The translations under genes were made by a program, and so were the position numbers. A DNA stretch of 64,000 bases from Dehalococcoidia bacterium. Its GTDB lineage: Bacteria > Chloroflexota > Dehalococcoidia > GIF9 > AB-539-J10. Location: NCBI GenBank assembly GCA_021157895.1, contig JAGGVQ010000006.1:8393-72392 (forward strand), in the 5' to 3' direction. Positions 531-42,858 of this stretch are shown here, in pieces (within the stretch, counting starts at the first letter, position 1; the number at the start of each line of letters is the position of its first letter). The notes beneath the pieces are model-generated. The model was not told the DNA's origin. It made no database searches and saw nothing but the letters and a program-made list of their open reading frames with translations.

Positions 531-1724
531 TTATATCAAGCTCAGGAAAATGCCAGCAACCACAGAACAGCCAATCGCGCCTGCCACGTTTGGTCCCATG
601 GCGTGCATCAATAGGAAGTTCCTGGGATTGGCCTTTTGGCCTTCTACCTGAGCTACCCTGGCTGCCATTGGGATAGCAGACACTCCTGCGGCACCAATTA
701 GGGGGTTGATCTTTTCCTTCAAGAAGAGATTTACAAACTGGACAGCAGCGATACCTCCTGCGGTGCATACAGCGAAGGCTATCGCTGCCAGCACAATGAT
801 GAGAAGGGTGCTGGTGTTTAGAAATACCACTGCTGGCATCAATGCTCCTACGGTGACTGTCAGTAAGATTGTAAGTATATCTATAAATGCTGTACTGGCT
901 GTGTGAGACAATCTTTCCGTCACTCCGCAGACATAAAGCAAGTTCCCGCCCATCAACATGCCAACCAGGGGTGCTGCTTTGGGAACGAATAGGGCGGTAA
1001 CCAGAAATATCGATATTGGGAAAAGTATCTTCTCTAGCTTGGAAACCTTACGAAACGCTGGCTTCATGTATATCTGTCGCTGTTTCTTAGTGGTCATAGC
1101 CCTGATAACAGGAGGTTGAAGTATGGGGACTAGAGCCATGTATGAATAGGCCACCAGTGCAATGGGACCAAGCAGATGGGGAGCTCTGGCCACCGCGAAG
1201 TATACTGCCACTGGTCCTGTGGCCCCTCCGATGATGCCGATGGAGGCAGCTTCAGGGAGAGAGAAGTGTCCTGTGAGGAGGGAAAGTATCAAGACAACAA
1301 AAATCCCGACCTGTGTTGCTGCACCGAATACCAGGTAAATGGGGCGAGAGATACAAGGTGTAAAATCAGTCATGGCCCCGATACAAAAGAACATGAGCAT
1401 AGGGATAATTTCTGTTTGGAGGCCGAATTGATAAAGAATGTTGAGCAGCCCGATCTTTCCTGAAGCGACCGCACTCATCAGTTCAGATATGTTCCCGTGT
1501 ATCTCCACGGGCATTGGTACTGCTCCCGCCGAAGAAGCAGGAGCGTGGAACATCAATCCTGCGAAAGGAACATTTACCAGCAGCATGCCGAACCCCATGG
1601 GAACGAGAAGAAGTGGTTCCATCTTCTTAACGATGCCGAGATAAATTAAAACCCCAGCGAGGAAGAACATTAGGATATTTCCCCACGTGAGGCCGGCAAA
1701 AGCCATCTCGTATAGTCCGAACAT
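531..1724 (-). CDS. oadB: Na+-translocating decarboxylase beta subunit (oxaloacetate/methylmalonyl-CoA/glutaconyl-CoA decarboxylase OadB/GcdB family); polytopic membrane protein.
   Basis: The 397-aa hydrophobic protein has the overall architecture and conserved stretches of the OadB family. An AGGAG ribosome-binding site lies 9 nt upstream. Confidence 0.7.
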   Translation of the reverse strand: MFGLYEMAFAGLTWGNILMFFLAGVLIYLGIVKKMEPLLLVPMGFGMLLVNVPFAGLMFHAPASSAGAVPMPVEIHGNISELMSAVASGKIGLLNILYQFGLQTEIIPMLMFFCIGAMTDFTPCISRPIYLVFGAATQVGIFVVLILSLLTGHFSLPEAASIGIIGGATGPVAVYFAVARAPHLLGPIALVAYSYMALVPILQPPVIRAMTTKKQRQIYMKPAFRKVSKLEKILFPISIFLVTALFVPKAAPLVGMLMGGNLLYVCGVTERLSHTASTAFIDILTILLTVTVGALMPAVVFLNTSTLLIIVLAAIAFAVCTAGGIAAVQFVNLFLKEKINPLIGAAGVSAIPMAARVAQVEGQKANPRNFLLMHAMGPNVAGAIGCSVVAGIFLSLI

Positions 1725-2465: not shown

Positions 2466-3503
2466 CTAGGTTTCTGGAGTTGGAGCTTTCTTGCTCTCTT
2501 TATCTACAGGATGTACAGGAAGCCCTATGGATGTTCTGATCTCGTGCTCTAGCTGTGTGGCTACATCAGGATGTTGCTTTAAGTAATCCTTGGCATTTTC
2601 CCTACCCTGGCCTAACCTTGTTTCCCCATAGGCGAAGTAAGTTCCTGACTTCTTTATTTTTCCCTCTGATAATCCGATATCAATTAAATTACCCTCTTTG
2701 CTTATGCCTTCATTGAACATGATGTCGAATTCGGTGTTGTGGAAGGGTGGAGCTACCTTGTTTTTAATGACTCTTGCTCTTACTCGAGAACCCACTACCT
2801 CTGAGCCATGTTTGATAGATTCGATCCGTCGCAAGTCTATTCTGACCGAGCTGTAGAACTTCAGAGCCCTACCGCCGGGAGTAACCTCGGGATTACCAAA
2901 AAATATGCCAACCTTCTCTCGAAGCTGGTTAATGAAGATAACAGATGTCTGCGAACGACTTATGATGCCAGTGAGCTTTCTTAATGCCTGAGACATCAAC
3001 CTGGCCTGTAAGCCGACATGGGCATCACCCATCTCGCCTTCGATTTCTGCCTTGGGTACCAGTGCTGCCACACTGTCTACGACAATCACATCTACGGCAT
3101 CGCTTCGTACCAGGGTTTCTGTTATTTCTAGTGCCTGTTCTCCGGTATCCGGCTGGGAAATGAGCAGATCATCTATGTTAACGCCACAGTGAGCTGCGTA
3201 TGTAGGGTCCAGGGCGTGTTCAACATCGATGTAGGCGGCGATGCCTCCTGATTTTTGAGCTTCGGCGATTATATGCTGGGCTAAAGTGGTTTTACCAGAA
3301 GCCTCAGAGCCGAAGATTTCGGTGACTCTGCCTCGAGGTATTCCTCCTATGCCCAAAGCTATGTCTAAGCCCAATGACCCGGTGGGTATAAAATCTATGG
3401 CTAGGCGTGACCATGTGCCTAATCTCATTATGGAACCTTTGCCAAATTGTTTGGCAACTTGCTCAATGGCGAGTTCCACTGCCTTTTCTTTATCTGTAGA
3501 CAT
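2466..3503 (-). CDS. recA: Recombinase RecA.
   Basis: Walker A motif GSEASGKTT, the canonical RecA core and full length (345 aa). Confidence 0.97.
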
Positions 3504-8718: not shown

Positions 8719-8835
8719 GTGGTGGGTGGATTTATATGTTTCAGGAACTGTATGCTTAGTTAGTGTTGATTCCATTTGAGGCGTTTCTCTTGCTTCCGCA
8801 GGTCATGATAAAATTAAATTAGGAGATGATGGTAT

Positions 8836-9141
8836 ATGGGCGATATTTTGGATGAGGCTACTACACTTATCAGGTGCAAGGAGTGTCCCTGGTATAAGAA
8901 TTGTATAGTTCCTGTGCATGCTAGTGTTGATGATGTCGAGCAGTTTCGGATGATGCTGCAAAGTGCTAGTCTCCCCGAGCAAACCAGAGAGGAGATAGGA
9001 AGAATCTTGGAGAGCATTGCTTCTGCGAGTCAGGATGTGATCTTGCAAAGCTGCCCTGTTTTTACCAAGAGGCTTAAGGATAACCCCAAACTGGCTCAGA
9101 GAATTAAGGAAATGATGCAACGTTGGGGGCAGGAGGAGTGA
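8836..9141 (+). CDS. Hypothetical 101-aa protein with an N-terminal CxxC...C cluster ([10 protein letters not shown]).
   Basis: Protein-like composition and an AGGAG ribosome-binding site 10 nt upstream. The overlapping minus-strand ORF looks like antisense noise. Confidence 0.5.
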
Positions 9142-9151
9142 AAAGGTAAAA

Positions 9152-9787
9152 ATGGCGGGGCAAATAGGTAAGGTTGACAGGCCTCCGGCGCACAAGTTTG
9201 AGAAAAAAAAGAAGATTTATTTGGTACCTCTTGTGTATCATGGCGATGGCGCACCGGATGATTATAAAAAGAAATGCGATGATTATTGGCAACAGGTTGC
9301 GTCCCATCTGGATAATTTAGAGGCGAAGATTGGCAAGATAACACATGTGTATCATGAGTCAATCACCATGCGAGGAGAAGAGGGACTGAAAGTCATAAAG
9401 AACTTAAATTCTGGGAGTTACCACATCTCTAAAAATAGATGTGATAATGGCGCTGTCCTTGAGGTTCTGGAGCAGGAAGATATTCTCGCTGAGACTATGG
9501 ATTGGGAGAGATGTCTATTCATGGGGTTGATGAGTGAGAAGGTGGCCAATAAGATATATGAATTCTACGCGGAGGTCTCTAAAAAGAGATATGAGATGAT
9601 GGCTGAGAAATTGGGGGAAACTCTTGGGGAGGGGGAGTCTGGTTTGTTATTTATCAGGGAGGGCCATAATCTGCAGTTTCCCGATGATGTCGAGGTATTC
9701 AGCGTTTTTCCACCGGCTCTGGATGATATTCACCGCTGGCTTCGTGACCGTGGTGGTGAGGGAAAGGGGAAAGATAAAAAAAAATAA
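9152..9787 (+). CDS. Hypothetical 211-aa protein with no recognisable family. It contains A8 and A9 homopolymer tracts encoding Lys runs.
   Basis: Long ORF with coding-like composition, co-directional and tightly spaced with the neighbouring genes. Confidence 0.5.
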   Translation: MAGQIGKVDRPPAHKFEKKKKIYLVPLVYHGDGAPDDYKKKCDDYWQQVASHLDNLEAKIGKITHVYHESITMRGEEGLKVIKNLNSGSYHISKNRCDNGAVLEVLEQEDILAETMDWERCLFMGLMSEKVANKIYEFYAEVSKKRYEMMAEKLGETLGEGESGLLFIREGHNLQFPDDVEVFSVFPPALDDIHRWLRDRGGEGKGKDKKK

Positions 9788-12879: not shown

Positions 12880-13593
12880 TTAGCTGTGAGGATAATCTAG
12901 TACGATAATCTGGGTCGTATCTGATTTGTGGGATTCCTTTATATTGAGTTTGGCTTTTATTGTGGAATCTTTGATTCCCATTTCCTTGAGAAACTTGTCT
13001 ACTGGCTCCAGATCTCCAGAGAGTATGGGAATTTTATAGTGCATGGGGATGGCAATGGGAGGATTTAATTGCTTCAGTATCTCTGCAGCTGTAGTAGTGC
13101 TAATCGTGGATCTCTCTCCAACGGGTAAGAACAATATATCGATGGTTCCTATTTTCTCCACCAACCCTGGAGTTAAGGGGTGCCCCAGGTCTCCCAGGTG
13201 ACATAAGACCATATTATCCATCTCAATAATGTAGAGGGTGTTGTCCCCACGGGTTTTACCTTTTTCCTCATCATGGAAAGTAGCAATGCCAGTGATAAAT
13301 ACGCCTCCTATGTCATATTCCCCGGGGCCTTTTATTTGCTTGGGGTTGCCATTGATGCCTTCGATGTAACTGTGTCCTGGATGAGGGTGGCTTATAGTTA
13401 CGATATCTGCCTGGAGTTCCTGCGGGGTATAACCTAAATCAGGAGAGTAGGGATCAGTAATAACGGTTTTTTCTGCCCCTTTGATATAGAAGCATGAGTG
13501 TCCCAGCCAGCTAATTTCCATTGGGTCTAAAGGATAGCCTTTTCCTCTAGCCTTGTCTATAGTCCTGGGTGTTGTGTTGTTTGACTGGTTCAA
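12880..13593 (-). CDS. MBL-fold metallo-hydrolase.
   Basis: HxHxDH-type motif (ISHPHPGHS). The true start is probably the internal Met at 13521, which removes the overlap with the next gene. Confidence 0.65.
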   Translation of the reverse strand: MNQSNNTTPRTIDKARGKGYPLDPMEISWLGHSCFYIKGAEKTVITDPYSPDLGYTPQELQADIVTISHPHPGHSYIEGINGNPKQIKGPGEYDIGGVFITGIATFHDEEKGKTRGDNTLYIIEMDNMVLCHLGDLGHPLTPGLVEKIGTIDILFLPVGERSTISTTTAAEILKQLNPPIAIPMHYKIPILSGDLEPVDKFLKEMGIKDSTIKAKLNIKESHKSDTTQIIVLDYPHS

Positions 13594-13963
13594 CCAGGAG
13601 GGTTAATCCCTGTTTGCTAAGAATGACGACTTCTTCCCCAGGGTCTATTTTATATGAGGTTGTTGATGATGCCTGCCATAATTCACCGCCAACCCTGATA
13701 TAGCCTTTGGGCATGAGAGGTGTTACTACCTTCCCCCTGTTTCCTGCTTCAGGGGAGGCATGTGCCCTCTTATCCAGGGCTTTCCTGCCCAGCCTGTAGG
13801 TTATATAGGCGCATGAGGCATAGGCCAGCATTATTACGATAAGAATCCAGTCGGGCAGGTGTATATCGTACTGAGGCAGAATCCAGAGCACCACTGCTAC
13901 CAGTGCTGCCTCTTCTAATAATGTGGTTACCAGGGAGTAAACGGCATACTTACGACCTTTCAT
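13547..13963 (-). CDS. NfeD-family membrane protein (short form).
   Basis: Two N-terminal TM helices and a C-terminal OB-fold-like region. Confidence 0.6.
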   Translation of the reverse strand: MKGRKYAVYSLVTTLLEEAALVAVVLWILPQYDIHLPDWILIVIMLAYASCAYITYRLGRKALDKRAHASPEAGNRGKVVTPLMPKGYIRVGGELWQASSTTSYKIDPGEEVVILSKQGLTLLVEPVKQHNTQDYRQG

Positions 13964-14038
13964 GATATTTGCCTGTAGGGCAATAATACCCTACGCGACG
14001 ATAGCCAACAAATGTTTTGACAGGATAGCATTCAGGCC

Positions 14039-14066
14039 GTTAACATATGATATTATCATGGTTAAC
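14039..14066 (+). promoter_or_regulatory. Putative BirA operator (bioO-like). Inverted GTTAAC half-sites sit 16 nt apart within a near-dyad GTTAACATATGATA/TATCATGGTTAAC. The element overlaps the birA start codon.
   Basis: The dyad is visible in the sequence. TGTTAAC/GTTAACA-type half-sites are characteristic of BirA operators (established knowledge). Confidence 0.45.
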
Positions 14067-14993
14067 GCAATGAAGGGCCAGGTGTTGCAGGAACTGCGCA
14101 GAAGTGGCACTTCGGTTTCTGGTCAGGCACTGAGCAGGAAGCTGGGCATCTCCCGGGTTTCTGTGTGGAAGCATGTTAATAGTTTGAAATCTGATGGATA
14201 TGATATAGCTGCTTCATCTCAGGGATATAGGTTGATATCTTCTCCTGACTTATTGCTTCCCTGTGAATTCCCCTGGTTGAAGCAAAAACTGTATCATTTT
14301 TATCAGGTTGATTCTACTATGAATGTGGCAAGGAGGTTAGCAAAGCAGGGGGTGGAAGCGGGGACAATTGTGGTGGCGGAGAGTCAAATGGGAGGTAGAG
14401 GCAGATTAGATAGGACATGGATCTCTCCAAAAGAAGGCATTTATCTTACTATTATTTTGCGGCCAGCGATAAGTGCTGTACATGCACCCAGGATAAATTT
14501 GATGGCTGCGGTTGCTGTGGCCATGGTTATCAGGTCTCTTTTTGGTGTAATGGCGGTCCTTAAATGGCCTAATGATGTTCTGGTCGGGGAAAAGAAGATA
14601 TGTGGAATATTAGCTGAGATGGAAGCGGAAATTGATGCTGTTCATTATGTGAATGTTGGCATTGGTCTTAATGTAAATGCATCTGTTGCTCGGGAAGAGG
14701 AGAATGCAACTTCTCTAAAAGAAGAGCTGGGCAGGCCAGTTTCCCGAAAGGAAGTTTTAGTTTCAGTGTTAGATGAAATAGATAGGCAGCAGGCTTTGTT
14801 GACAGGGGATGGCCTGCTGGAGCAATGGCGGGCTCTGAACACCACGCTGGGCAAGGATGTCAAGATTGTTATGCTGGATGGAGAGATACGAGGCAAGGCA
14901 CTGGATATTGATACTAATGGGGCGCTTGTGGTTAGGGATAGGGAAGGGAGTTTGCATAGAATTCTTGCCGGGGATTGCATTCACCTGCACTAG
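14058..14993 (+). CDS. birA: Bifunctional biotin--[acetyl-CoA-carboxylase] ligase and biotin-operon repressor BirA.
   Basis: N-terminal HTH (GQALSRKLGISRVSVWKHVNSL), a ligase core and a C-terminal SH3-like domain. The start is taken at MVNAMKGQ; the track's upstream extension (13962) is rejected. Confidence 0.85.
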   Translation: MVNAMKGQVLQELRRSGTSVSGQALSRKLGISRVSVWKHVNSLKSDGYDIAASSQGYRLISSPDLLLPCEFPWLKQKLYHFYQVDSTMNVARRLAKQGVEAGTIVVAESQMGGRGRLDRTWISPKEGIYLTIILRPAISAVHAPRINLMAAVAVAMVIRSLFGVMAVLKWPNDVLVGEKKICGILAEMEAEIDAVHYVNVGIGLNVNASVAREEENATSLKEELGRPVSRKEVLVSVLDEIDRQQALLTGDGLLEQWRALNTTLGKDVKIVMLDGEIRGKALDIDTNGALVVRDREGSLHRILAGDCIHLH

Positions 14994-15041
14994 TCCATCT
15001 TGTAGCGATTAGGCTTGATTGCAGATTCGAAGGGAGTTGAC

Positions 15042-16448
15042 ATGTTGCAATTGGCGATTATTGGCGTTTACTTCATTGTTATTATTGCCATAGGCTTATG
15101 GAGCAGGAAAAGGGTAAGCAGCCAGGAGGGCTTTTTTGTTGCCAACCGTGAAGGTACAACATTTCTTATCACCGGGTCTCTTGTGGCCACCGCTGTTGGG
15201 GGATCATCCACTGTGGGAATGGCCGGCCTGGGTTTCTCCTGGGGGTTGGTGGGTGCATGGTGGCTTCTCGTTGGGACTGCAGGACTCCTCGTTTTAGGTT
15301 TTTTATTTGCTAAGAAGGTCAGGCATACAGGGTCTTACACCTTGCCGGAGCTGGTGCGCAAGCAATATGGTGATAAGGTTGCTCTGGCAGCCTCTATCCT
15401 GATAGTTATAGCATGGGTGGGAATAGTAGCAGGGCAGATTGTTGCTGCTGGCAAGGTTCTATCTATTCTGGGAATGGGTTCTCCTACCCTGTGGATGATT
15501 GTTTTCACCATTGTTTTTATTAGCTATTCCATGCTAGGGGGGCAGCTGTCGATCATTCGCACTGATGTTTTCCAGGCAGCCATGCTATTCGGGGGAATTT
15601 TTCTCACTGCTGGGCTACTTCTTACTCGTGTAGGAGGGATGGATGGCTTGGCAACCTCTCTGCCCGCCAGCTATTTTTCCTTTCCTGTGAATCCTGAGTT
15701 CAGTTGGAAGACGCTGGTGTCTATGCTTATTCTCGTTGGTGCTACATATGTGGTGGGCCCTGACATATATACTCGTCTTTTCTGTGCCAAGGGAGAGGGC
15801 ACGGCGAGGCGCTCAGTCCTTCTCTCAGCATTTCTGTTTATTCCCCTAGCTTTTGCGATCACCTTGATAGGAATGGGAGCGAAGGTGCTCTATCCCCATA
15901 TTCCTGCTGAGCAAGCGTTCCCCCAGGTGGTAAGTGGGATTCTCTCTACTGCTATGGGAGGGCTGGTGCTCGCAGCCCTGGTTGCTGCTCTTATGTCTTC
16001 AGCAGATACCTGTGTCATGAGCCAAAGCATTATCCTGACTAATGATATAGTTAAGCAAGCTCGTGGGTCGCTTAGTGACAGGGCGGCTCTGAGACTGACT
16101 CGCCTGGGAGTGCTGGTTCTTGGCGTGATAGCCCTGCTATTAGCGCTGATGCTGAAGGGGGTAATATCATCGCTTTTCTTTGCTTACACCATTTTCACCT
16201 CGGGCCTGGTTGTTCCTGTAATTGCCGGGTTTTACCGGGAAAAGCTGAAGTTGACCTCACAAGGAGCACTGGCGGCTGTGGTTGGTGGAGGAATAGTAGG
16301 GTTGCTGGGGAAAATTCCCGTGGTGGATGTCCCTCTAAAGGATGATTTGGGTCTTATTGCTTTTGCCATAAGTGCTGTTTTGCTGTTTGCAGTCAGTTAC
16401 CTTACCCGGGGCAATAGCGTTATGAGTGTAAGCTCTCTCCGCCACTAG
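15042..16448 (+). CDS. Sodium:solute symporter family transporter (PanF/SMVT-like). Candidate biotin or vitamin transporter.
   Basis: SSF fold with about 13 TM segments, lying 50 nt downstream of birA in the same orientation. Confidence 0.75.
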   Translation: MLQLAIIGVYFIVIIAIGLWSRKRVSSQEGFFVANREGTTFLITGSLVATAVGGSSTVGMAGLGFSWGLVGAWWLLVGTAGLLVLGFLFAKKVRHTGSYTLPELVRKQYGDKVALAASILIVIAWVGIVAGQIVAAGKVLSILGMGSPTLWMIVFTIVFISYSMLGGQLSIIRTDVFQAAMLFGGIFLTAGLLLTRVGGMDGLATSLPASYFSFPVNPEFSWKTLVSMLILVGATYVVGPDIYTRLFCAKGEGTARRSVLLSAFLFIPLAFAITLIGMGAKVLYPHIPAEQAFPQVVSGILSTAMGGLVLAALVAALMSSADTCVMSQSIILTNDIVKQARGSLSDRAALRLTRLGVLVLGVIALLLALMLKGVISSLFFAYTIFTSGLVVPVIAGFYREKLKLTSQGALAAVVGGGIVGLLGKIPVVDVPLKDDLGLIAFAISAVLLFAVSYLTRGNSVMSVSSLRH

Positions 16449-16595
16449 TTCCACTGGCATTTCTGGGAAGCCTCCTGTGCTGGTAGTAGCCAGATTTTTC
16501 TTTCCTGTATTATCCCTATTCTGTTTTTGCTGTATGTTAAGCAGGCAGGATTGTGGAGTAGTAGGGAAGGTAGGATATAATAAAATAATATACAC

Positions 16596-17450
16596 ATGCA
16601 TATTGTTGTTATTGGCTTGGGACTTATTGGGGGTTCCCTCGGGCTCGCATTGCATGAGGTTCACGAACCGGGGTGGGATGTTATCGGTTATGTCCGGCGG
16701 CCTGAGCTTGCTGCGCAGATGCTCTCCCTGGGAGTGGTTGATCGCGTGGAAACTAATCTCAGGCAGGTGGTACAGGAAGCAGATATTGTTGTTGTTGCCA
16801 CTCCAGTTGTGGCAGTGAGGGAGGTGTTGTCCCAGATATCCGGCTCTATTCCCCGTGGCTGTGTAGTTACTGATACTGCCAGTACCAAGTTCCAGGTTAT
16901 GGAGTGGGCAGAGGAGTTATTACCGCCCACGGTGAATTTTATCGGTGGACATCCCATGGCAGGGAAAGAGACTTATGGAGTGCAGGCGGCTGAAGCTAGC
17001 CTATTCCGGGGGCGTATGTGGTGCCTTACACCATCAAGGAGAGCCTCTCCTGCCTCTGTGAAACAGATTACCAGTATCCTGGACAAGGCGGGTGCTATTC
17101 CCCTGGTAATGGATGCTCGAGAACACGATAATCTGGTGGCTGGTATTAGTCATTTACCTATGTTGCTATCGGCAGCCTTAACATCTGTTACTACCAGTAG
17201 CTCCTCCTGGCAAGCTATGTCTCGGTTGGCTGCGTCGGGGTATCGTGACCTTACTCGTTTGGCAGCCGGGAGCCCTGAGGTGAATTCTGATATATGTATC
17301 ACCAATAAGGAGGCTATTGTTAGTTGGATTGATCAGTTTATCGATGAGCTTGAGGAGTATCGAGCCTTGGTGGGGGCAGGTGATGAGAGATTGCAGCATA
17401 AATTGGCTGCGGCTAACAGGGCGAGACAGCAATGGCTGGACAAAACCTAA
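16596..17450 (+). CDS. tyrA: Prephenate/arogenate dehydrogenase.
   Basis: Rossmann GLGLIGGS motif and a TyrA core. Confidence 0.85.
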   Translation: MHIVVIGLGLIGGSLGLALHEVHEPGWDVIGYVRRPELAAQMLSLGVVDRVETNLRQVVQEADIVVVATPVVAVREVLSQISGSIPRGCVVTDTASTKFQVMEWAEELLPPTVNFIGGHPMAGKETYGVQAAEASLFRGRMWCLTPSRRASPASVKQITSILDKAGAIPLVMDAREHDNLVAGISHLPMLLSAALTSVTTSSSSWQAMSRLAASGYRDLTRLAAGSPEVNSDICITNKEAIVSWIDQFIDELEEYRALVGAGDERLQHKLAAANRARQQWLDKT

Positions 17451-26853: not shown

Positions 26854-27849
26854 ATGGATAAATCTGTAAAAGTAGCTCTGGATGCTATGGGAGGAGATTT
26901 TGCTCCCCGTGATATAGTTGAAGGAGCAGTTCGTGCAGCGTCTGGTGATGATGGCATTGAGATTATCTTGGTAGGGGCTGAGAGCCTTATCCGCAGTGAA
27001 CTGGCAAAATATGATGTCTCCGGGCTGCCTCTTTCCATAGTAAATGCCAGCCAGGCTGTTCGTGATGGTGAGCCCCCCGTGGCTGCGCTGCGTCACAAGC
27101 CAGATGCCTCCATTCTGGTGGCCATGCGTTTGGTAAAAGAAGGGCAGGCGGATGCCATGATAAGTATGGGTTCCACCGGGGCAGTTATGGTGAGTGCCAT
27201 TCAAATCTTGGGAAAACTGGAGGGCGTACAGCGTCCCACTGTGGGCACCAGTTTGCAAGACTTGGCTCCCGGTACGGTAATGTTTGACATGGGGGCGAAT
27301 TCTGATTGTAAGCCGCGTGATTTATTCAATTTTGCCATTATTGGCCATGCTTTCGCTCGCAAGATAATAGGCATCGAGCATCCTACAGTGGCTCTTCTCA
27401 GCAATGGGGCCGAGGAAGGTAAGGGCAATAAGGTAACGAAGGAAGCCTACCAGTTGTTCCAGAAAGGGAACTTCAACTTTATTGGCAATGTCGAGGGGGA
27501 TGATATCCCTAAAGGTAAGGCCAATGTCATTATCTGTGATGGCTTTGTTGGCAATATCATAACCAAGTTTTGTGAGGGCCTGGGGGATGTGCTTGGTGAG
27601 CGATTGCAGGTTAGCCTGGAAGGGCAGCTTGCCCCGGAAAAGATCAGTAAAATCACTGGTGAGCTGTTTAATTTAACCCATGTGCCTGATGTTGGTGGAG
27701 GGGGATTGATCTCTGGTGTCGATGGAGTGGTATGGATTGGTCATGGCCGTTCCCAAGCTCCGCAGTTAGCTGAGGCTATTCGCCAGGCGCGGCTTGCGGT
27801 AGAAACCAACTTTGTGCGGGAATTAAAGTCAGAACTAAGAACAGGATGA
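26854..27849 (+). CDS. plsX: Phosphate acyltransferase PlsX.
   Basis: N-terminal ALDAMGGDFAP motif and full length. Confidence 0.95.
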   Translation: MDKSVKVALDAMGGDFAPRDIVEGAVRAASGDDGIEIILVGAESLIRSELAKYDVSGLPLSIVNASQAVRDGEPPVAALRHKPDASILVAMRLVKEGQADAMISMGSTGAVMVSAIQILGKLEGVQRPTVGTSLQDLAPGTVMFDMGANSDCKPRDLFNFAIIGHAFARKIIGIEHPTVALLSNGAEEGKGNKVTKEAYQLFQKGNFNFIGNVEGDDIPKGKANVIICDGFVGNIITKFCEGLGDVLGERLQVSLEGQLAPEKISKITGELFNLTHVPDVGGGGLISGVDGVVWIGHGRSQAPQLAEAIRQARLAVETNFVRELKSELRTG

Positions 27850-28619
27850 AGGTTAGACTTTTAGGGGCCCATGGGATTGACTCGCGTGATACCAGGTTCA
27901 TGTCGGTATTGGTTGATGAGGTTATTGCCCTGGATGCCGGCTCTCTATCCTCCATGTTATCTTTTCCGCAACAGGAGAAAGTCAAAGCGGTTATGTTGAC
28001 TCACTCTCACGCGGATCATATCATGGGGCTTGCTGCCTTGTGCATGAGAGCCTTTGTTTCCCATGTTACGGTGGAAGTGTATGCCATTAAGGAAACCATC
28101 GATGCCCTGAAAGCCCATGTATTCAACGATGTTATCTCCCCCGATTTCACTGTAAGTCCTTCTCCTGAGTCTCCTGCTGTGAGATTTCACCAGGTGGAGG
28201 CCTACCAGCCACGGCGTATCGGTGATTATGAGGTTGCCGCCCTTCCAGTTCATCATTCCGTTCCTGCCGTGGGCTATCAGGTTACCTCAGCCAGCGGCAA
28301 GAGCGTGCTGTATACTGGAGATACTGGTCCCGGGCTAGCGCCTCGCTGGGACGATATCCACCCCGATATTATTATCTGTGATTGTGCTGCTCCCAATAGC
28401 TGGGATGCCGGGGCACTGCATGTGGGGCACATGACCCCGAACCTGCTCAGGCCAGAGTTGGTAGAATTTCGCCGACACAAGGGTTACCTTCCCCGAATAA
28501 TAGGGGTTCACATGGTTCCCTCGTGGCAAAAAGAGATTGAAAGGGATGTGTTTGAATTAGCGCGTGAAATAGAGGCTGATATAACGTTGGGATATGAGGG
28601 AATGGAGGTAGAAATCTAG
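27846..28619 (+). CDS. MBL-fold metallo-hydrolase (phosphodiesterase-like).
   Basis: HSHADH motif. Its ATGA start overlaps the plsX stop. Confidence 0.7.
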   Translation: MKVRLLGAHGIDSRDTRFMSVLVDEVIALDAGSLSSMLSFPQQEKVKAVMLTHSHADHIMGLAALCMRAFVSHVTVEVYAIKETIDALKAHVFNDVISPDFTVSPSPESPAVRFHQVEAYQPRRIGDYEVAALPVHHSVPAVGYQVTSASGKSVLYTGDTGPGLAPRWDDIHPDIIICDCAAPNSWDAGALHVGHMTPNLLRPELVEFRRHKGYLPRIIGVHMVPSWQKEIERDVFELAREIEADITLGYEGMEVEI

Positions 28620-28650
28620 TGGAAGAAAAATATGATATTGGAGAACTAAT

Positions 28651-29490
28651 ATGACCGTTGCGGTACTTGCTGATAGCTCCTGTGCGATAACACCCGATCT
28701 TCAGGAGAAATTTCATATGAAGATAGTGCCCCTGCACTTGATGTGGGACAAGGAAGAATATGCTGACTGGAGAGACATGACTCCGGACGAGTTTTATGCT
28801 CGTTTGAAGAAGGAAACCAAGAACTGGCCCACCAGCAGCGGCTCGGTTCAGGGCGAGTTCTATAATGCTATAGAGGAACTGCGGGGCAAGTTTGATGCTG
28901 CTGTTGTGATAACGCTTAGCCCCAATACTCCCTCAGCTGGCTATAGTTCGGCCTTGCGTGCGAAGGACATGATTGAGGATTTTCCTGTCGAGGTTGTTGA
29001 CAGCAATTTTGTTGCTACAGGAGCGGGACTGGTGGTCACTGCTGCCGGCAGGGTGGCTGCTTCTGGGGGGACCCTGGAAGAAGTGGTCCAGGCGGCCAGG
29101 AGCGTTATTCCCAGGGTAAATCTGTACTATAATGTGGGTTCCATTGAGTATTTTTTGAAAGGTGGCCGTGTTAGCAGTTCTGATGTTGGGAAGCATGAGG
29201 ACAGCTATATAATCGGCTCCAAGGATGGTAAGATTACTCCGCTGGAACATTACTCCACACGGGAGGAAGCGCGTCAGCGTATTAAGGAACTGGTGCGGGA
29301 AAAGGCTCGCCATGATACTCCGCTTCATGCGGCTGTGTTTCATGGCGCTGCGCGACAGGAAGCTGAAGAGCTTAAGGATTGGGTGGCATCTCAGTATAAT
29401 TGTCCTGAACTCTGGATTGGGGAACTTTCCCCGGTTGTGGCAATTCACATGAGTCCTGAGACTCTGGGCATTGGTTTTTACAACGAATAG
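28651..29490 (+). CDS. fakB: DegV-family fatty-acid-binding protein (FakB-like).
   Basis: DegV fold signature (AVLADSSCAITPDL...) and its position directly upstream of the DAK2-domain gene. Confidence 0.85.
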   Translation: MTVAVLADSSCAITPDLQEKFHMKIVPLHLMWDKEEYADWRDMTPDEFYARLKKETKNWPTSSGSVQGEFYNAIEELRGKFDAAVVITLSPNTPSAGYSSALRAKDMIEDFPVEVVDSNFVATGAGLVVTAAGRVAASGGTLEEVVQAARSVIPRVNLYYNVGSIEYFLKGGRVSSSDVGKHEDSYIIGSKDGKITPLEHYSTREEARQRIKELVREKARHDTPLHAAVFHGAARQEAEELKDWVASQYNCPELWIGELSPVVAIHMSPETLGIGFYNE

Positions 29491-29505
29491 AACAGGAGGC
29501 AGTTC

Positions 29506-30470
29506 ATGCAGGCGGTACAACAAGTAGAGATAGATGGTCAGGATTTCAAGAAAGCCCTAGAGGGAGCTAAAGATCGCATAGAGCAGCATATAGATGAACT
29601 TAACGAACTGAATGTGTTTCCTGTTCCCGATGGGGATACCGGCATCAATATGTTTATGACCATGAGGTCGGCGGTGGGGGAAGTAGAAGATTCCCCCGAG
29701 ACCTCCGTGGGGAAGGTCTCCAAGATGGCAGCCCGAGGAGCTCTTTTGGGAGCCCGGGGCAATTCGGGAGTTATTCTTTCGCAGATACTGAGAGGTATCT
29801 CCAAGGGGATAGGCGATAAGGAGAAAATCTCTCCCCATGATTGGGCACAGGCATTGAAGCTTGGCTCAGACGAGGCATATCGGCTTGTGGTGGAGCCTGC
29901 GGAAGGGACTATTCTCACGGTGATTCGAGAAGTTTCCGAAGCAGCCTCCAGGATGACAGAGAGGAAAGTTGGTTTCACCCGCGTTGTTGTATCCCTGGCC
30001 ACCCAGGCGAGGAAGACGGTTAAGAAAACGCCCGAGCTACTCCCTGTGTTAAAGCAAGCAGGGGTGGTGGATGCTGGAGCCAAGGGATTAATGTATTTCT
30101 TTGTTGGCGTTAAGGAATCTGTCTGCAGAAAAACTTCTTCCTCGAGGTCTCGCCCGGGTGTTTCTCCCAGAGTTTCGTGATAGTGAGGAAGGATATGGGT
30201 GATAGCAGGGAGCGAGTTTATGGATTTGATGTTCAGTTTATCCTCGAGGGGGAGAATTTGCCTCTGGAGGAGATAAAGAAGACAGTTCAGGCAGCAGGGC
30301 AGTATCCGCTGGTTGTGGGGGATGAGACGCTGCTCAGAGTTCATGTGCATACTCTTGATCCTGATGCCATAGTGAGTTACGGGCGCAGTAGAGGAAAGTT
30401 AAGCGACCTCGTTATCGAAGACCTGGACCTCCAGGCAGAGCAGAAAAAAAATAGAGGGGCTGGCAAATAA
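29506..30470 (+). pseudogene. fakA: DAK2-domain protein (FakA/YloV-like), frameshifted near 30115-30180 and missing roughly the C-terminal 200 aa seen in full-length homologues.
   Basis: Frame 1 gives a DAK2 domain (VPDGDTGINM...LPVLKQAGVVDAGAKGL) that ends in Ser/Arg-rich out-of-frame residues. Frame 0 continues with VVGDETLLRVHVHTLDPD...EDLDLQ, which matches the YloV middle region. fabF begins 22 nt after the stop. Confidence 0.6.
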
Positions 30471-30492
30471 GACTTGTGAGAAGGAAGATACT

Positions 30493-31740
30493 GTGACTCA
30501 GGTGACGAAGAGAAGAGTAGTGATTACGGGACTGGGGGCAGTGACGCCCCTGGGGACTGGGGTGGAGAAGTCCTGGCAAGCTTTGTGCCAGGGTAAATCT
30601 GGCGTAGCCAGGATCACCAAGTTTGACGCCAGTGATTTTAAGGCACAGATTGCCGCCGAGCTCAAAGATTTTCATCCTGAGGATTTTTTAGATCGGAGAA
30701 AGATTCGTCGCACTGATTCTTTCATTCAGTATAGCCTGGCAGCTACCAGGATGGCCCTTGATGATTCAGGGCTGGCTATTAACGCTGGCAATGCCGGCAG
30801 GGTGGGGAATGTGATAGGTACCTCTGTTGGTGGGATGCAGACATATGAGGACACCCTGTCTACCCTTCGGGACAGGGGGCCAGGTGCTGTTTCCCCTTTT
30901 TTTATCCTGGGATTTATTCCCAATATGCTGGGGGGAGAGATTTCTATCGCCTTTGGAAGCAAGGGGCCGAGCATGTGTGTGTCTAACGCCTGTGCGACGG
31001 GGAACTCTGCTATTGGGGAAGCTATGAGACTCATCCAGTATGGCGATGCGGATGCCATGATTGCTGGTGGTAGTGAAGCTTATATTATCCCGGTGGGAAT
31101 TGCCGGACTGGATAAAATGAGGGCGATATCCCGGAGGAATGATGAGCCTGAGAAAGCCAGCCGTCCCTTTGACAAGGAGAGGGATGGCTTTGTGCTTGGT
31201 GAAGGGGCTGCTACCCTTATTCTGGAGGAGATGGAAGCTGCAGTCAATCGGGGAGCCAGGATATATGCTGAACTGACAGGGTATGGCGCCAATATCGATG
31301 GTTTTCATGCTACAGAGCCTGATTGGGAAAGCCAGGCCAGGTGCATGAACTTGGCTTTAGCTGACGCGGGTATTTCTGCAGGTGATGTTGATTATATCAA
31401 TGCCCACGGCACATCTACTCCTCTCAATGATGTGAGTGAGACCCTGGCCATAAAGGCTGTTTTAGGGAGTCGGAGCAAGGATGTTCCCGTTAGCTCCAAT
31501 AAGTCTATGCTGGGACACTTGCTGGGAGCAGCGGGGGCTGTGGAGGCGGTGTTCACCGTGCTTACCATCAGGGATGGAATCATCCCTCCTACGATAAATC
31601 AAGAGACTCCTGATCCTGAGTGTGACCTGGATTATGTTCCCAACGTGGCGAGAAAGGCTAAGGTAGATGTAGCCATGTCCAACTCTTTTGGATTTGGAGG
31701 ACCTAACGCTATTCTTGTTTTCAGCAGGTTTCGCGAATAG
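30493..31740 (+). CDS. fabF: 3-oxoacyl-ACP synthase II.
   Basis: KAS-II active-site context, full length, and an N-terminal VVITGLGAVTPLG. Confidence 0.95.
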   Translation: MTQVTKRRVVITGLGAVTPLGTGVEKSWQALCQGKSGVARITKFDASDFKAQIAAELKDFHPEDFLDRRKIRRTDSFIQYSLAATRMALDDSGLAINAGNAGRVGNVIGTSVGGMQTYEDTLSTLRDRGPGAVSPFFILGFIPNMLGGEISIAFGSKGPSMCVSNACATGNSAIGEAMRLIQYGDADAMIAGGSEAYIIPVGIAGLDKMRAISRRNDEPEKASRPFDKERDGFVLGEGAATLILEEMEAAVNRGARIYAELTGYGANIDGFHATEPDWESQARCMNLALADAGISAGDVDYINAHGTSTPLNDVSETLAIKAVLGSRSKDVPVSSNKSMLGHLLGAAGAVEAVFTVLTIRDGIIPPTINQETPDPECDLDYVPNVARKAKVDVAMSNSFGFGGPNAILVFSRFRE

Positions 31741-41710: not shown

Positions 41711-41830
41711 TTATTTATCCGCACCCTCCTGGCTGTCAACTGGTTGTGTTGCTGCCAGCTTTCTCTTGTTTTCCAGCTTCTTCGCACGTCGGAGGTGCTT
41801 CATTTTTGCCATTCGTTTGGCTTTATTCAT
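41711..41830 (-). CDS. Unannotated 39-aa strongly basic ORF: MNKAKRMAKMKHLRRAKKLENKRKLAATQPVDSQEGADK.
   Basis: Its ATG overlaps the TGA stop of the upstream gene (ATGA). It exactly fills the gap between the MetE-like gene and the NTPase, and it is below the ORF-track length cut-off. Confidence 0.4.
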   Translation of the reverse strand: MNKAKRMAKMKHLRRAKKLENKRKLAATQPVDSQEGADK

Positions 41831-42858
41831 TCTACATACTTCTCTCTCATGCTAGCAGATAGCTCTGCCAGTATATGTAATGCTTCGCTTGCCGCCTCTG
41901 TGGACATACCGGCTAATCCCGATGAAGGGGTTAGCAGGCTCTGAGCTACGACTTGCCTGAAGTTGATGCCATCCCTGGTGAAGGGAAGCATCGCTTCGCT
42001 GAGGCGGTCTCTCAAGCTCGCCACGGATTCTTCTGCCAGCTTATCTTCCTCGTGTGGGACTATTCCCCACCCGATTACCCCTCCACGCTTGAGGAAGGAT
42101 ACTACCTCGCTGGGATAAGCCTCCAGGGAACTGGCATTGTTATAAGTGTCGAAGCTCAGGATATCGATGCTTGTGGCGAGGAGAAGTGGCCAGTTGGCAT
42201 CTCCACAGCAATAGATTCCTTTTATGCCCTTGATACCCTGCAGCACTTCCTCCAGCAAGCTGGTAACTATTTCCGGAGGAATGATAGTTGAATCCAGGGA
42301 TGTGAGGCGAGGTTCATCAATAAATATTATGGGATGGAGAGCTGCCTCATTCAGAACGTTATCCTGCCAAGCAGCCTTTAAGCGCAAAAACTTGGCTATG
42401 ACTGGAGCTAAGACCTGGTTGTAAATGATAGCTTTGCCGTTATTATCCTTAATTGTTAGACCCCATGATATTGGGCCAGTAACTTGTCCTTTAACCCACT
42501 CTAGGCCTGAGGCGTTGGACAGGAAGAAATGAAGTCCTTCAGCATAGTCCTCAGACATACTGTATTTGCCAAATACCTCTTGTTTTGCGTCATCCTGTAT
42601 CTGGTTTAGGAGGGCAGTGAAATTTGATGGGGGTTCGATATATGCTTTGTCCTCTATTACTACAGCTCCCGGAAAACCCTCGCTAAATTGGACATACATG
42701 TTTTCTGTGAAGGTGCGGTTGGGTAGCTGGGGCCATGCAGGAATTTCGGGCAGGTACCTCATAATAGTTGAATATGCCTCTATCACGTCAGTATGTGGCA
42801 TACAGCCAAGCGCCGTTGGCAGACAATTAAACTCTTGTTCAGACATTGTTTCCTCCAT
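41827..42858 (-). CDS. Short (343-aa) URO-D/CIMS-superfamily protein resembling the cobalamin-independent methionine synthase catalytic domain (archaeal-type short MetE).
   Basis: IIFIDEP and CCGD motifs aligned to the MetE C-terminal zinc site. It sits inside the methionine/SAM-cycle cluster. Confidence 0.5.
   Translation of the reverse strand: MEETMSEQEFNCLPTALGCMPHTDVIEAYSTIMRYLPEIPAWPQLPNRTFTENMYVQFSEGFPGAVVIEDKAYIEPPSNFTALLNQIQDDAKQEVFGKYSMSEDYAEGLHFFLSNASGLEWVKGQVTGPISWGLTIKDNNGKAIIYNQVLAPVIAKFLRLKAAWQDNVLNEAALHPIIFIDEPRLTSLDSTIIPPEIVTSLLEEVLQGIKGIKGIYCCGDANWPLLLATSIDILSFDTYNNASSLEAYPSEVVSFLKRGGVIGWGIVPHEEDKLAEESVASLRDRLSEAMLPFTRDGINFRQVVAQSLLTPSSGLAGMSTEAASEALHILAELSASMREKYVE

What the first reader, a model, noticed from the sequence alone, without database searches (positions are those of the whole stretch)
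14031..16448. birA appears autoregulated through a bioO-like dyad over its own start codon and is co-transcribed with a sodium:solute symporter
Two GTTAAC half-sites sit 16 nt apart inside the near-dyad GTTAACATATGATA/TATCATGGTTAAC, and they straddle the birA ATG. BirA here retains its N-terminal HTH, so it is the repressor form. The only gene downstream in the same orientation is an SSF-family transporter. Canonical bacterial biotin uptake uses BioY, an ECF component. In contrast, the eukaryotic SMVT biotin/pantothenate carrier is an SSF protein. A BirA-controlled SSF biotin transporter would therefore be a non-canonical bacterial biotin uptake route.
Basis: partly seen in the sequence, partly recalled or inferred. 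Interest (0 to 1): 0.65.

Follow-up and report, generated by a model that had tools for sequence, protein, structure and literature searches.

The report
BirA-repressed birA–sodium symporter operon
A Dehalococcoidia bacterium carries its biotin ligase/repressor gene (birA) in an operon with a sodium:solute symporter behind a conserved BirA operator, and the same pairing in a second phylum suggests this symporter subfamily is an undescribed bacterial importer of biotin or a biotin precursor.

Summary
The dyad is real. GTTAAC-N16-GTTAAC lies at 14039-14066 and is the only such pair in the 64 kb window (0.01 expected).

It does not straddle the conserved birA start. That start is the ATG at 14070, 3 nt after the right half-site. 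The left half-site holds the -10 (TAACAT) of the best promoter match in the region.

In 64 related Dehalococcoidia loci (55 distinct upstream sequences) the promoter, both half-sites and their distance to the ATG are conserved. The spacer drifts freely.

birA is always followed by the same symporter (SSF) gene. The gap is 3 nt or less in 41 of 83 loci, and flanking genes vary. Two loci carry a second exact operator directly in front of the symporter.

Independent support comes from Thermodesulfobacteriota. A Syntrophales contig has a birA-SSF operon behind an E. coli-type dyad (TGTAAAC-N16-GTTGACA), and four stand-alone SSF genes carry that dyad.

The symporter is not PanF or PutP, and it is not specifically related to SMVT. 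It belongs to a small, generically annotated SSF subfamily.

Autoregulation and co-transcription are well supported. Biotin (or vitamer) import is inferred, at about 0.65. I could not check whole genomes for bioY or bio genes.

The parts
14017..14022 (+). -35 hexamer TTGACA of the birA promoter
   Evidence: Best sigma-70-like match in 13500-17000 (10 of 12). TTGACA is conserved at the same distance from the left half-site in 55 distinct orthologous upstream regions.
14041..14046 (+). -10 hexamer TAACAT, lying inside and just after the left operator half-site
   Evidence: spacer 18 here, 17 in relatives. TAAC(A/C)T is conserved in relatives. That this is the functional -10 is inferred from consensus and conservation.
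14039..14066 (.). BirA operator: GTTAAC-N16-GTTAAC inverted repeat (half-sites 14039-14044 and 14061-14066)
   Evidence: Unique in the window, 0.01 expected. Exact or 1-mismatch equivalents (N15 or N16) lie at the same position in all 64 loci with a complete birA, with divergent spacers. The half-site matches the EMSA-verified L. lactis BirA1 site on bioY1 (PMC4861984) and the TTNAC-N16-GNTAA sites footprinted for C. ljungdahlii BirA (PMC8449670).
14070..14993 (+). birA: bifunctional biotin-protein ligase/repressor, 307 aa
   Evidence: Pfam HTH_11 (4-54), BPL_LplA_LipB (77-201), BPL_C (259-305). NCBIfam birA_ligase scores 196 bits against a cut-off of 83. Full-length match to S. aureus BirA 6apw. 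GRGRLDRTW and KWPND motifs are read from the sequence. The start is set by homology in relatives.
14994..15041 (+). 48-nt birA-SSF intergenic spacer with the SSF ribosome-binding site (AAGGGAG, 15030-15036)
   Evidence: No promoter-like or terminator-like site here. In relatives the gap is 3 nt or less in 41 of 83 loci, including four 4-nt overlaps.
15042..16448 (+). Sodium:solute symporter (SSF) of a distinct subfamily, 468 aa; candidate importer of biotin or a biotin vitamer
   Evidence: PF00474 full length. PutP and PanF equivalog cut-offs are not met. AF2 model has pLDDT 88.5 and the SSF/LeuT fold. The serine pair aligned to the vSGLT Na2-site serines is conserved (MSSADT). BirA-regulon membership is inferred.
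16480..16493 (+). Weak terminator-like hairpin plus T-run after the SSF gene; possible operon end
   Evidence: Consensus scan only. Folding of 16440-16600 is no better than shuffles (z = -0.30), so this part is tentative.

Best explanation
The locus is a two-gene biotin-scavenging operon, birA-SSF, under negative autoregulation by BirA.

Proposed mechanism:
1. When biotin is plentiful and acceptor proteins are fully biotinylated, BirA keeps its product biotinoyl-5'-AMP, dimerises and binds the two GTTAAC half-sites. Their centres are 22 bp apart, about two helical turns.
2. The left half-site contains the -10 hexamer and the dyad covers the predicted transcription start. The right half-site ends 3 nt before the birA ATG. 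Bound BirA therefore blocks RNA polymerase.
3. When biotin is scarce, the operator is free. The cell then makes more ligase and more of the co-transcribed Na+-coupled symporter, which imports biotin or a close vitamer.

Shown here by sequence and comparison:
- the dyad, its promoter overlap and its conservation;
- the BirA domain architecture;
- the conserved operon;
- BirA-type dyads in front of the same symporter subfamily in a second phylum.

Inferred:
- BirA binding and repression;
- co-transcription;
- Na+ coupling;
- the substrate.
For: - The dyad is unique in the window.
- All 64 orthologous loci with a complete birA (55 distinct upstream sequences) keep TTGACA-N17/18-TAAC(C/A)T and GTTAAC-N15/16-GTTAAC ending 3 nt before the ATG, while the spacer varies.
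- All 64 exact dyads in the 93 sequences scanned (92 loci, 566 kb, plus the window segment) lie upstream of birA (62) or between birA and the SSF gene (2).
- birA-SSF adjacency holds in every locus with enough upstream DNA. The gap is 3 nt or less in 41 of 83. tyrA follows directly in only 32 of 68, and nfeD lies upstream in only 30 of 56.
- L005 and L033 have a second exact operator immediately upstream of the SSF gene.
- L106/L107 (Syntrophales) carry birA (HTH_11 + BPL + BPL_C) 23 nt upstream of an SSF that is 48% identical. The flanks are unrelated, and TGTAAAC-N16-GTTGACA overlaps the -35.
- The same dyad lies directly upstream of stand-alone SSF genes in L007, L009, L096 and L100. These, with the two Syntrophales loci, are the only hits in 670 kb of fetched loci.
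- All these SSFs form one subfamily with a shared signature, GGQxS(I/V)(I/L)RTD plus MSSADT.
- BirA aligns full-length to S. aureus ligase/repressor.
- Known BirA-regulated transporter genes are biotin importers: bioY (PMC4861984, PMC5640590) and yigM (PMC5343134 supplement).
- The window also encodes the beta subunit of a Na+-pumping, biotin-dependent decarboxylase. This indicates a biotin need and a sodium economy.
Against: - There is no direct evidence for the substrate.
- The closest specific NCBIfam model is PutP (96 bits), although far below its cut-off.
- In one Thermodesulfobacteriota sub-clade, an SSF 75% identical to dyad-bearing ones sits without a dyad in an operon with an ADP-forming acyl-CoA-synthetase-like gene and an M24 (prolidase/creatinase-type) peptidase. 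This points to a carboxylate or amino-acid substrate at least as easily as to biotin.
- Four other relatives (L006, L095, L097, L101) have no dyad.
- Presence or absence of bioY and bio biosynthesis genes in these genomes could not be examined. Only the 64 kb window was checked, and it has none.
- Promoter elements are consensus matches only.
Confidence: 0.65

Rival explanations
1. The operon and its BirA control are as described, but the symporter imports a biotin precursor or related carboxylate (pimelate, dethiobiotin, KAPA) rather than biotin itself. It would feed a partial or complete biosynthetic pathway encoded elsewhere.
For: - In some Thermodesulfobacteriota the same subfamily lies in an operon with a CoA_binding/Succ_CoA_lig acyl-CoA-synthetase-like gene. 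In L103-L105 that gene overlaps the SSF start.
- From my own knowledge, unchecked here: NDP-forming acyl-CoA synthetases include the pimeloyl-CoA synthetase PauA, and the B. subtilis BirA regulon contains the acyl-CoA ligase operon yhfUTS.
- PMC6593275 notes that biotin transporters may accept vitamers.
Against: - No bio biosynthesis gene is linked to the SSF in any of the 107 loci fetched.
- The partner gene in two phyla is the ligase that uses biotin itself.
- The acyl-CoA-synthetase-linked loci carry no BirA dyad in the DNA available.
Confidence: 0.15
2. The symporter has nothing to do with biotin (for example a proline, amino-acid or other small-solute carrier). It is co-transcribed with birA by historical accident, and BirA autoregulation is the only functional feature.
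For: - Best specific family scores are PutP and PanF, both sub-threshold.
- Some relatives lie next to a prolidase-type M24 peptidase or next to glnA.
- Part of the flanking synteny (tyrA-aroA-gmk) is also conserved without any functional link.
Against: - The pairing arose or persisted in two phyla, with unrelated flanks and different operator variants.
- Stand-alone SSF genes carry their own BirA-type dyad in four loci.
- Two Dehalococcoidia loci acquired a second operator just before the SSF gene.
- birA-SSF linkage is far tighter than the flanking synteny.
- The glnA-linked relatives lack the subfamily signature.
Confidence: 0.15
3. The dyad is not a BirA operator. It would be a chance palindrome (GTTAAC is also the HpaI site) or the site of another regulator.
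For: - GTTAAC is over-represented in the window, 20 found against 8 expected.
- No binding experiment exists.
Against: - Expected number of such pairs is 0.01.
- Half-sites, spacing and position are invariant across 55 distinct promoters with drifting spacers.
- The half-site equals experimentally bound BirA sites in Firmicutes (PMC4861984, PMC8449670).
- BirA here keeps its winged-helix domain.
- In Syntrophales the birA promoter carries the E. coli-type variant instead.
Confidence: 0.03

Closest known systems
BirA-bioY regulons of biotin-auxotrophic Firmicutes (Lactococcus lactis BirA1/bioY1, Streptococcus suis BirA/bioY; PMC4861984, PMC4877710)
   Same: A Group II BirA with an N-terminal winged helix represses a biotin-importer gene through an inverted repeat with GTTAAC-type half-sites overlapping the promoter. 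The logic is scavenging rather than synthesis.
   Different: - The regulated transporter here is an SSF secondary carrier, not the ECF S-component BioY.
- The transporter lies in one operon with birA, so the regulator is itself autoregulated.
- Binding is not tested here.
E. coli BirA/bioO repression of the bioA/bioBFCD promoters
   Same: A bifunctional ligase/repressor, a corepressor-dependent dimer and a long imperfect palindrome covering promoter elements. The Thermodesulfobacteriota relatives even use the E. coli-type half-site TGTAAAC.
   Different: - The targets in E. coli are biosynthesis genes, and birA is not autoregulated there.
- The half-site in the window is GTTAAC with a 15-16 nt spacer.
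- The E. coli operator sequence is quoted from memory, not from a tool.
Predicted BirA autoregulation in Desulfovibrionales (PMC5343134)
   Same: A BirA site lies upstream of birA itself, inferred by comparative genomics.
   Different: - There the regulon is bio plus fab genes, and no SSF transporter is listed among the BirA-regulon genes shown in the supplement part read for the 94 Proteobacteria.
- A 2016 review states that autoregulation is 'not observed with BirA/BPL' (PMC5640590). Autoregulation is therefore rare in the literature, yet it is the rule in this clade.
SMVT / SLC5A6, the animal sodium-dependent multivitamin (biotin, pantothenate, lipoate) transporter
   Same: Same superfamily (SSF/SLC5, LeuT fold) and the same proposed job of Na+-coupled biotin uptake.
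   Different: There is no specific relationship. The family profile scores 52.8 bits on SMVT, against 117 on SGLT2, 106 on vSGLT and 94 on CHT1. If the function is the same, it is convergent within the superfamily.
PanF (Na+/pantothenate) and PutP (Na+/proline) bacterial SSF carriers
   Same: They are the nearest named bacterial SSF equivalogs, of similar size and topology, and the Na2-site serine pair is conserved.
   Different: Scores are 86.8 against a cut-off of 328 (PanF) and 95.9 against 515.5 (PutP). The subfamily has its own signature, in which Arg replaces the Trp seen at this position in vSGLT (GGQxSIIRTD).
YigM (BioP), the DMT-family biotin permease of enterobacteria
   Same: A secondary, non-ECF biotin importer that is in the BirA regulon of a few genomes (PMC5343134 supplement).
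   Different: It belongs to an unrelated protein family.

Membership tests
Group II (bifunctional ligase/repressor) BirA | N-terminal winged helix-turn-helix DNA-binding domain | tested here: met
   Pfam HTH_11 at residues 4-54, E = 1.7e-12. NCBIfam birA_repr_reg domain scores 56.9 bits, below its cut-off of 70. The alignment to S. aureus BirA starts at residue 5 of the query and residue 8 of the chain.
Group II (bifunctional ligase/repressor) BirA | Catalytic BPL domain with the biotin/ATP loop GRGRxxRxW and the KWPND motif, plus the C-terminal BPL_C domain | tested here: met
   BPL_LplA_LipB and BPL_C. TIGR00121 scores 196 bits against a cut-off of 83. GRGRLDRTW and LKWPNDV are read in the translation of 14070-14993.
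Group II (bifunctional ligase/repressor) BirA | Biotinoyl-AMP-dependent binding to an operator and repression | not testable with these tools
   Needs EMSA or footprinting and reporter assays.
BirA operator (bioO-type site) | Inverted repeat of TGT(T/A)AAC-type half-sites separated by about 15-16 nt | tested here: met
   GTTAAC-N16-GTTAAC at 14039-14066. Compare the L. lactis EMSA site (PMC4861984) and TTNAC-N16-GNTAA (PMC8449670).
BirA operator (bioO-type site) | Overlap with core promoter elements of the regulated gene | tested here: met
   The -10 TAACAT lies within and next to the left half-site, with the -35 TTGACA 18 nt upstream. This is conserved in 55 promoters. The promoter is a consensus match; no transcription start site data exist.
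BirA operator (bioO-type site) | Conservation upstream of orthologous genes with a non-conserved spacer (phylogenetic footprint) | tested here: met
   64 of 64 loci with a complete birA have the site. Information content is near maximal at the half-sites and low in the spacer.
BirA operator (bioO-type site) | Further sites upstream of other biotin genes in the same genome | not testable with these tools
   Only 64 kb of the genome is available and it holds no further site.
Sodium:solute symporter family (SSF, PF00474 / TC 2.A.21) | Full-length match to the family profile and a LeuT-type fold | tested here: met
   PF00474 positions 1-406 of 406, E = 3.5e-37. AF2 pLDDT 88.5. Foldseek TM 0.75-0.83 to SGLT2, CHT1, SiaT, vSGLT and NIS.
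Sodium:solute symporter family (SSF, PF00474 / TC 2.A.21) | Na2-site residues (serine pair in the TM8-equivalent helix) | tested here: met
   The query's LMSSADT aligns with vSGLT IVSSLAS. M318/S319 are invariant and S320 is at least 90% conserved in the subfamily. Actual Na+ coupling is not shown.
PanF (Na+/pantothenate symporter) | Score above the NCBIfam equivalog cut-off (TIGR02119) | tested here: not met
   86.8 bits against a cut-off of 328.
PutP (Na+/proline symporter) | Score above the NCBIfam equivalog cut-off (TIGR02121) | tested here: not met
   95.9 bits against a cut-off of 515.5.
SMVT / SLC5A6 clade | Closer to SMVT than to other SLC5/SSF members | tested here: not met
   Profile against PDB: SMVT (26va) 52.8 bits, SGLT2 117.5, vSGLT 106, CHT1 94.
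Prokaryotic biotin importers (functional class: BioY, YigM) | Demonstrated high-affinity biotin uptake or rescue of a transport-deficient biotin auxotroph | not testable with these tools
Prokaryotic biotin importers (functional class: BioY, YigM) | Membership of a biotin regulon in several lineages | tested here: met
   Dehalococcoidia birA-SSF operons with the GTTAAC dyad; a Syntrophales birA-SSF operon and four stand-alone SSF genes with the TGTAAAC-N16-GTTGACA dyad.
Prokaryotic biotin importers (functional class: BioY, YigM) | Complementary distribution with bioY, and occurrence in biotin auxotrophs | not testable with these tools
   Whole genomes could not be scanned. No BioY, BioB, BioF, BioA or BioD domain was found in the window ORFs scanned.

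The most novel reading that the evidence does not exclude
This SSF subfamily (signature GGQxSIIRTD plus MSSADT) would be a third, previously unrecognised family of prokaryotic biotin importers, besides BioY and YigM. It is found in anaerobic Dehalococcoidia and Thermodesulfobacteriota/Syntrophales and would be convergent with animal SMVT. In Dehalococcoidia the BirA regulon may have shrunk to a self-contained two-gene module, in which the regulator's main target is its own operon: ligase plus importer.
Probability: 0.55. Interest if true: 0.7.

Novelty: new variant of a known kind. Interest (0 to 1): 0.62.

Why it matters
- The papers I could read name only two families of prokaryotic biotin importers, BioY and YigM (PMC4049904, PMC6593275). 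In the human gut survey, 22% of biotin auxotrophs lack BioY.
- A Na+-coupled SSF-type importer would fill part of that gap for abundant, mostly uncultured sediment and groundwater anaerobes, whose vitamin dependencies shape cultivation media and cross-feeding models.
- It would turn hundreds of genes annotated only as 'sodium:solute symporter family protein' into a testable function. It would also give an independent bacterial counterpart to SMVT for structure-function work.
- The locus shows that BirA autoregulation, described as not observed or rare (PMC5640590, PMC5343134), is the rule in a whole clade.
- The prediction can be tested directly with existing tools: the delta-bioH delta-yigM tester strain and a BirA EMSA.

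Tried and rejected
- Other dyads in the window: none exact. Sites with up to 2 mismatches are all in coding DNA, 11 found against 4-12 in shuffles.
- bio genes or bioY in the window: Pfam scans of about 56 ORFs found none. This says nothing about the rest of the genome.
- PanF or PutP identity: rejected on NCBIfam cut-offs.
- Specific SMVT homology: rejected.
- Sugar transport: the vSGLT residues E68/Q69 (residue numbers recalled from memory) align to Ser/Thr in the query.
- Riboswitch or other RNA element: no Rfam match in 13500-17000 at E up to 1.
- Terminator after the SSF gene: only a weak consensus hit, and the fold is no better than shuffles.
- A BirA homologue search meant to find lineages where bioY replaces the SSF returned only the same clade at 58-66% identity. 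It was not informative.
- The first set of about 50%-identical SSF relatives (L006-L011) had no GTTAAC dyad. This at first suggested a clade-restricted association. Re-inspection found the E. coli-type dyad in L009 and L007, which I then followed up.
- The glnA-linked Dehalococcoidales relatives (L008, L010) lack the subfamily signature and are treated as outside the group.
- Literature: no paper in the searchable library links an SSF carrier with BirA or bacterial biotin uptake. Rodionov et al. 2002, Rodionova et al. 2015 (Chloroflexi B-vitamin transporters), Hebbeln et al. 2007 and Romine et al. 2017 could not be opened. Prior mention there or in RegPrecise/SEED cannot be excluded.
- The structure model allowed only fold-level comparison. 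No pocket analysis or docking was possible.
Full report
**1. What is in the sequence**

The region reads ...TTGACAggatagcattcaggccGTTAACATatgatattatcatgGTTAACgcaATGaag.... The two GTTAAC hexamers lie at 14039-14044 and 14061-14066, with 16 nt between them. A search for GTTAAC-N14-17-GTTAAC finds only this site in 64 kb, where 100 dinucleotide-preserving shuffles give a mean of 0.01. GTTAAC alone is somewhat over-represented, with 20 found against 8 expected. That does not come close to explaining a correctly spaced pair in a 106-nt intergenic region. Allowing two mismatches adds only coding-region matches, 11 found against 4-12 in ten shuffles.

The ORF behind the dyad is a complete bifunctional-type BirA:
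- HTH_11 (residues 4-54), BPL_LplA_LipB and BPL_C domains.
- TIGR00121 at 196 bits, cut-off 83.
- Alignment over residues 5-303 with S. aureus ligase/repressor BirA.
- The GRGRLDRTW and KWPND catalytic motifs are readable in the translation.

Forty-eight nucleotides after its stop, behind an AAGGGAG ribosome-binding site, starts a 468-aa protein. It matches the whole Pfam SSF profile, positions 1-406 of 406.

**2.

The longest ORF starts at 13962. In relatives, BirA homology begins at the position of the ATG at 14070, and most relatives have their start codon there. The dyad therefore ends 3 nt upstream of the real start.

The SSF gene is also not the last gene on this strand. tyrA, aroA and gmk follow after a 147-nt gap that holds a weak terminator-like hairpin. 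That hairpin folds no better than shuffled sequence.

**3. Is it a BirA operator?**

The window is from a Dehalococcoidia genome, judging by the nearest named proteins and contigs. I collected 92 related loci by searching with the SSF protein.

- Sixty-four loci contain a complete birA with at least 60 nt upstream, and 55 of those upstream sequences are distinct.
- Every one has TTGACA, 17 nt (18 in the window), TAAC(C/A)T. Every one has GTTAAC-N15-GTTAAC, exact or with one mismatch, ending 3 nt before the start codon. The spacer is N16 in the window, L004 and L083.
- Per-column information is near maximal at the -35 and at both half-sites, and low in the spacer. This is a classical phylogenetic footprint.
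- In the 93 sequences scanned (92 loci, 566 kb, plus the window segment) there are 64 exact sites. Sixty-two lie in front of birA and two between birA and the SSF gene; none lies elsewhere.

The half-site equals that of experimentally bound BirA sites. One is L. lactis BirA1 on the bioY1 promoter, ACAGTTAACC...GGGTTACTGT (PMC4861984). Another is the footprinted TTNAC-N16-GNTAA sites of C. ljungdahlii BirA (PMC8449670).

The window's best sigma-70-like match is this same promoter, 14017-14046, at 10 of 12 positions. Because the -10 lies in the left half-site and the dyad covers the predicted start site, repression by promoter occlusion is the natural reading. This step is inferred, as there are no binding or transcription start site data.

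**4. Is the symporter part of the unit?**

- In every locus with enough upstream DNA, birA directly precedes the SSF gene on the same strand.
- The gap is 3 nt or less in 41 of 83 loci, including four 4-nt overlaps. It is 31-55 nt in most of the others and is long only where repeat elements have been inserted.
- No promoter-like or terminator-like site lies in the window's 48-nt gap.
- Flanking synteny is much weaker. tyrA follows directly in 32 of 68 loci, and nfeD precedes in 30 of 56. The pair is therefore held together more tightly than its neighbourhood.
- L005 and L033 have a second exact GTTAAC-N15-GTTAAC immediately upstream of the SSF start.

**5. Independent evidence from a second phylum**

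Relatives at about 50% identity in Thermodesulfobacteriota at first seemed unlinked to birA and lacked GTTAAC dyads. Reading their upstream regions showed TTGTAAACC-N14-GGTTGACAA in L009, an E. coli-type bioO half-site whose right arm doubles as a -35.

I then searched with the L009 protein and fetched the contexts of 11 further relatives. The results were:

1. L106/L107 carry an SSF 98% identical to a protein named 'Syntrophales bacterium'. A birA with HTH_11, BPL and BPL_C lies 23 nt upstream of it, with unrelated flanks (an FAD-binding gene upstream, an RNase D-like gene downstream). TGTAAAC-N16-GTTGACA lies over the -35 of the birA promoter. This BirA is 37% identical and this SSF 48% identical to the window's proteins.
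2. The same dyad lies directly upstream of stand-alone SSF genes in L007 (the same contig as L098), L009, L096 and L100, each with a different spacer.
3. Across all 670 kb of the 107 loci, these are the only matches with up to one mismatch.

A tree of 20 context-known SSFs shows one subfamily with a shared signature, GGQxS(I/V)(I/L)RTD plus MSSADT. BirA-linked or dyad-bearing members sit on both main branches.

The association between BirA and this symporter subfamily therefore appears in three architectures and with two operator variants. That is hard to explain without a functional link.

**6. What the symporter is and is not**

- NCBIfam places it only at superfamily level. PutP scores 95.9 (cut-off 515.5) and PanF 86.8 (cut-off 328).
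- A family profile scores SGLT2 at 117 bits, vSGLT at 106, CHT1 at 94, SMVT at only 52.8 and NIS at 37. The SMVT parallel is functional convergence at best.
- The AF2 model (pLDDT 88.5, pTM 0.88) has the generic SSF/LeuT fold, with TM 0.75-0.83 to SGLT2, CHT1, SiaT, vSGLT and NIS.
- The serine pair aligned to the vSGLT Na2-site serines is conserved, and the vSGLT sugar-binding residues E68/Q69 (numbers recalled from memory) are not.
- The subfamily is small. Of 1.84 billion representatives, 450 score E ≤ 1e-30, and only about 20 clusters at 50% identity score above 280 bits.
- Public names are generic: 'sodium:solute symporter family protein'.

**7. Mechanism proposed**

With biotin replete and acceptor proteins saturated, BirA carrying biotinoyl-AMP dimerises on the dyad and shuts off birA-SSF. 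With biotin scarce, both the ligase and the Na+-coupled importer rise.

The window also encodes the beta subunit of a Na+-pumping, biotin-dependent decarboxylase (OAD_beta, 531-1724). This fits both a biotin requirement and a sodium-based energy economy.

Every transporter gene reported in a BirA regulon in the papers I read is a biotin importer: bioY (PMC4861984, PMC5640590) or yigM (PMC5343134 supplement). That is the basis for naming biotin as the substrate.

**8. What weakens the substrate assignment**

- Some Thermodesulfobacteriota members, up to 75% identical to dyad-bearing ones, lie without a dyad in an operon with an ADP-forming acyl-CoA-synthetase-like gene and an M24 peptidase. Four others also lack the dyad. 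This leaves room for a precursor such as pimelate, or for an unrelated solute.
- I could not scan the genomes for bioY or bio genes. The window has none, which is uninformative for a whole genome.

My estimates:

| Claim | Confidence |
|---|---|
| Dyad is a BirA operator | about 0.9 |
| birA and SSF are co-transcribed | about 0.85 |
| SSF imports biotin or a vitamer | about 0.65 |

**9. Novelty**

BirA, its operator type and BirA control of a biotin importer are all known. New elements, as far as the accessible literature shows:
- An SSF-type carrier in the biotin regulon. None appears among the BirA-regulon genes listed in the supplement part I read for 94 Proteobacteria, or in the reviews and surveys read.
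- Clade-wide BirA autoregulation. It is reported only for Desulfovibrionales (PMC5343134) and called 'not observed' in a 2016 review (PMC5640590).

Key older papers (Rodionov 2002; Rodionova 2015 on Chloroflexi vitamin transporters) could not be read. I allow roughly a one-in-four chance that the link has been noted before. I class the finding as a new variant of a known kind.

Noticed in passing
window 531-1724 (-): Na+-transporting oxaloacetate-decarboxylase beta subunit (OAD_beta, E = 2e-133) lies at the left edge of the window. It is the membrane subunit of a biotin-dependent, sodium-pumping decarboxylase. This implies a biotin requirement and a sodium-motive force that could drive the symporter. 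The partner subunits would lie outside the window.
   Followed up: no
L093/L094 690-5410; L099, L102, L011; L103-L105 1068-4293: In some Thermodesulfobacteriota the same SSF subfamily sits in a conserved operon: [401-aa protein, no Pfam] - [CoA_binding/Succ_CoA_lig acyl-CoA-synthetase-like] - [Creatinase_N/Peptidase_M24] - SSF - [about 138-aa protein, no Pfam]. No BirA dyad is present in the DNA available. In L103-L105 the M24 gene is missing and the synthetase overlaps the SSF start. This may hold a clue to the substrate.
   Followed up: partly
window, whole (20 sites; e.g. 18773, 18860, 26275, 26476): GTTAAC (also the HpaI site) occurs 20 times against 8.1 +/- 2.5 expected from shuffles. The cause, whether codon usage (Val-Asn) or something else, was not examined.
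   Followed up: no
L029 1369-1716, L059 about 2780-3000, L037 about 765-917; L001 4700-5000: Repeat-like insertions of 150-340 nt sit between birA and the SSF gene, or upstream of birA, in a few relatives. They include shared segments such as GTCACCCTGAGCGAAGCGAAGGGTCTCTGAGATTCTTCG and G-rich palindromes, and they look like small mobile or repetitive intergenic elements. They lengthen the gap without separating the two genes.
   Followed up: no
window 13962-14069; protein P0121: The 95%-identical public BirA relative (P0121, from JGI) is 343 aa, the same length as the window ORF that starts at the ATG at 13962. That start would place the operator and promoter inside coding sequence. Lengths of 307-345 aa among close relatives suggest inconsistent start calls for this gene.
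   Followed up: partly
L008 and L010, 2523-5389: Dehalococcoidales relatives of the SSF (about 50% identity) lie divergently next to glutamine synthetase. They lack the subfamily signature, with GGQWAAIKTD and a two-residue deletion in the MSSADT Na-site motif. They are probably a different specificity and possibly not Na+-coupled.
   Followed up: partly
window 9152-9787 (+), 41827-42858 (-), 49624-50274 (+), 8803-9195 (-): Four ORFs of 130-343 aa have no Pfam match at the thresholds used (E ≤ 0.001 for 9152-9787, E ≤ 1e-5 for the other three). Whether they are real genes was not checked.
   Followed up: no
window 26854-31740 (+): Fatty-acid and lipid genes (plsX-type FA_synthesis, DegV, a Dak2-domain protein, beta-ketoacyl synthase) lie 12 kb downstream. 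In Desulfovibrionales fab genes are in the BirA regulon (PMC5343134), but no BirA-type dyad precedes them here.
   Followed up: partly
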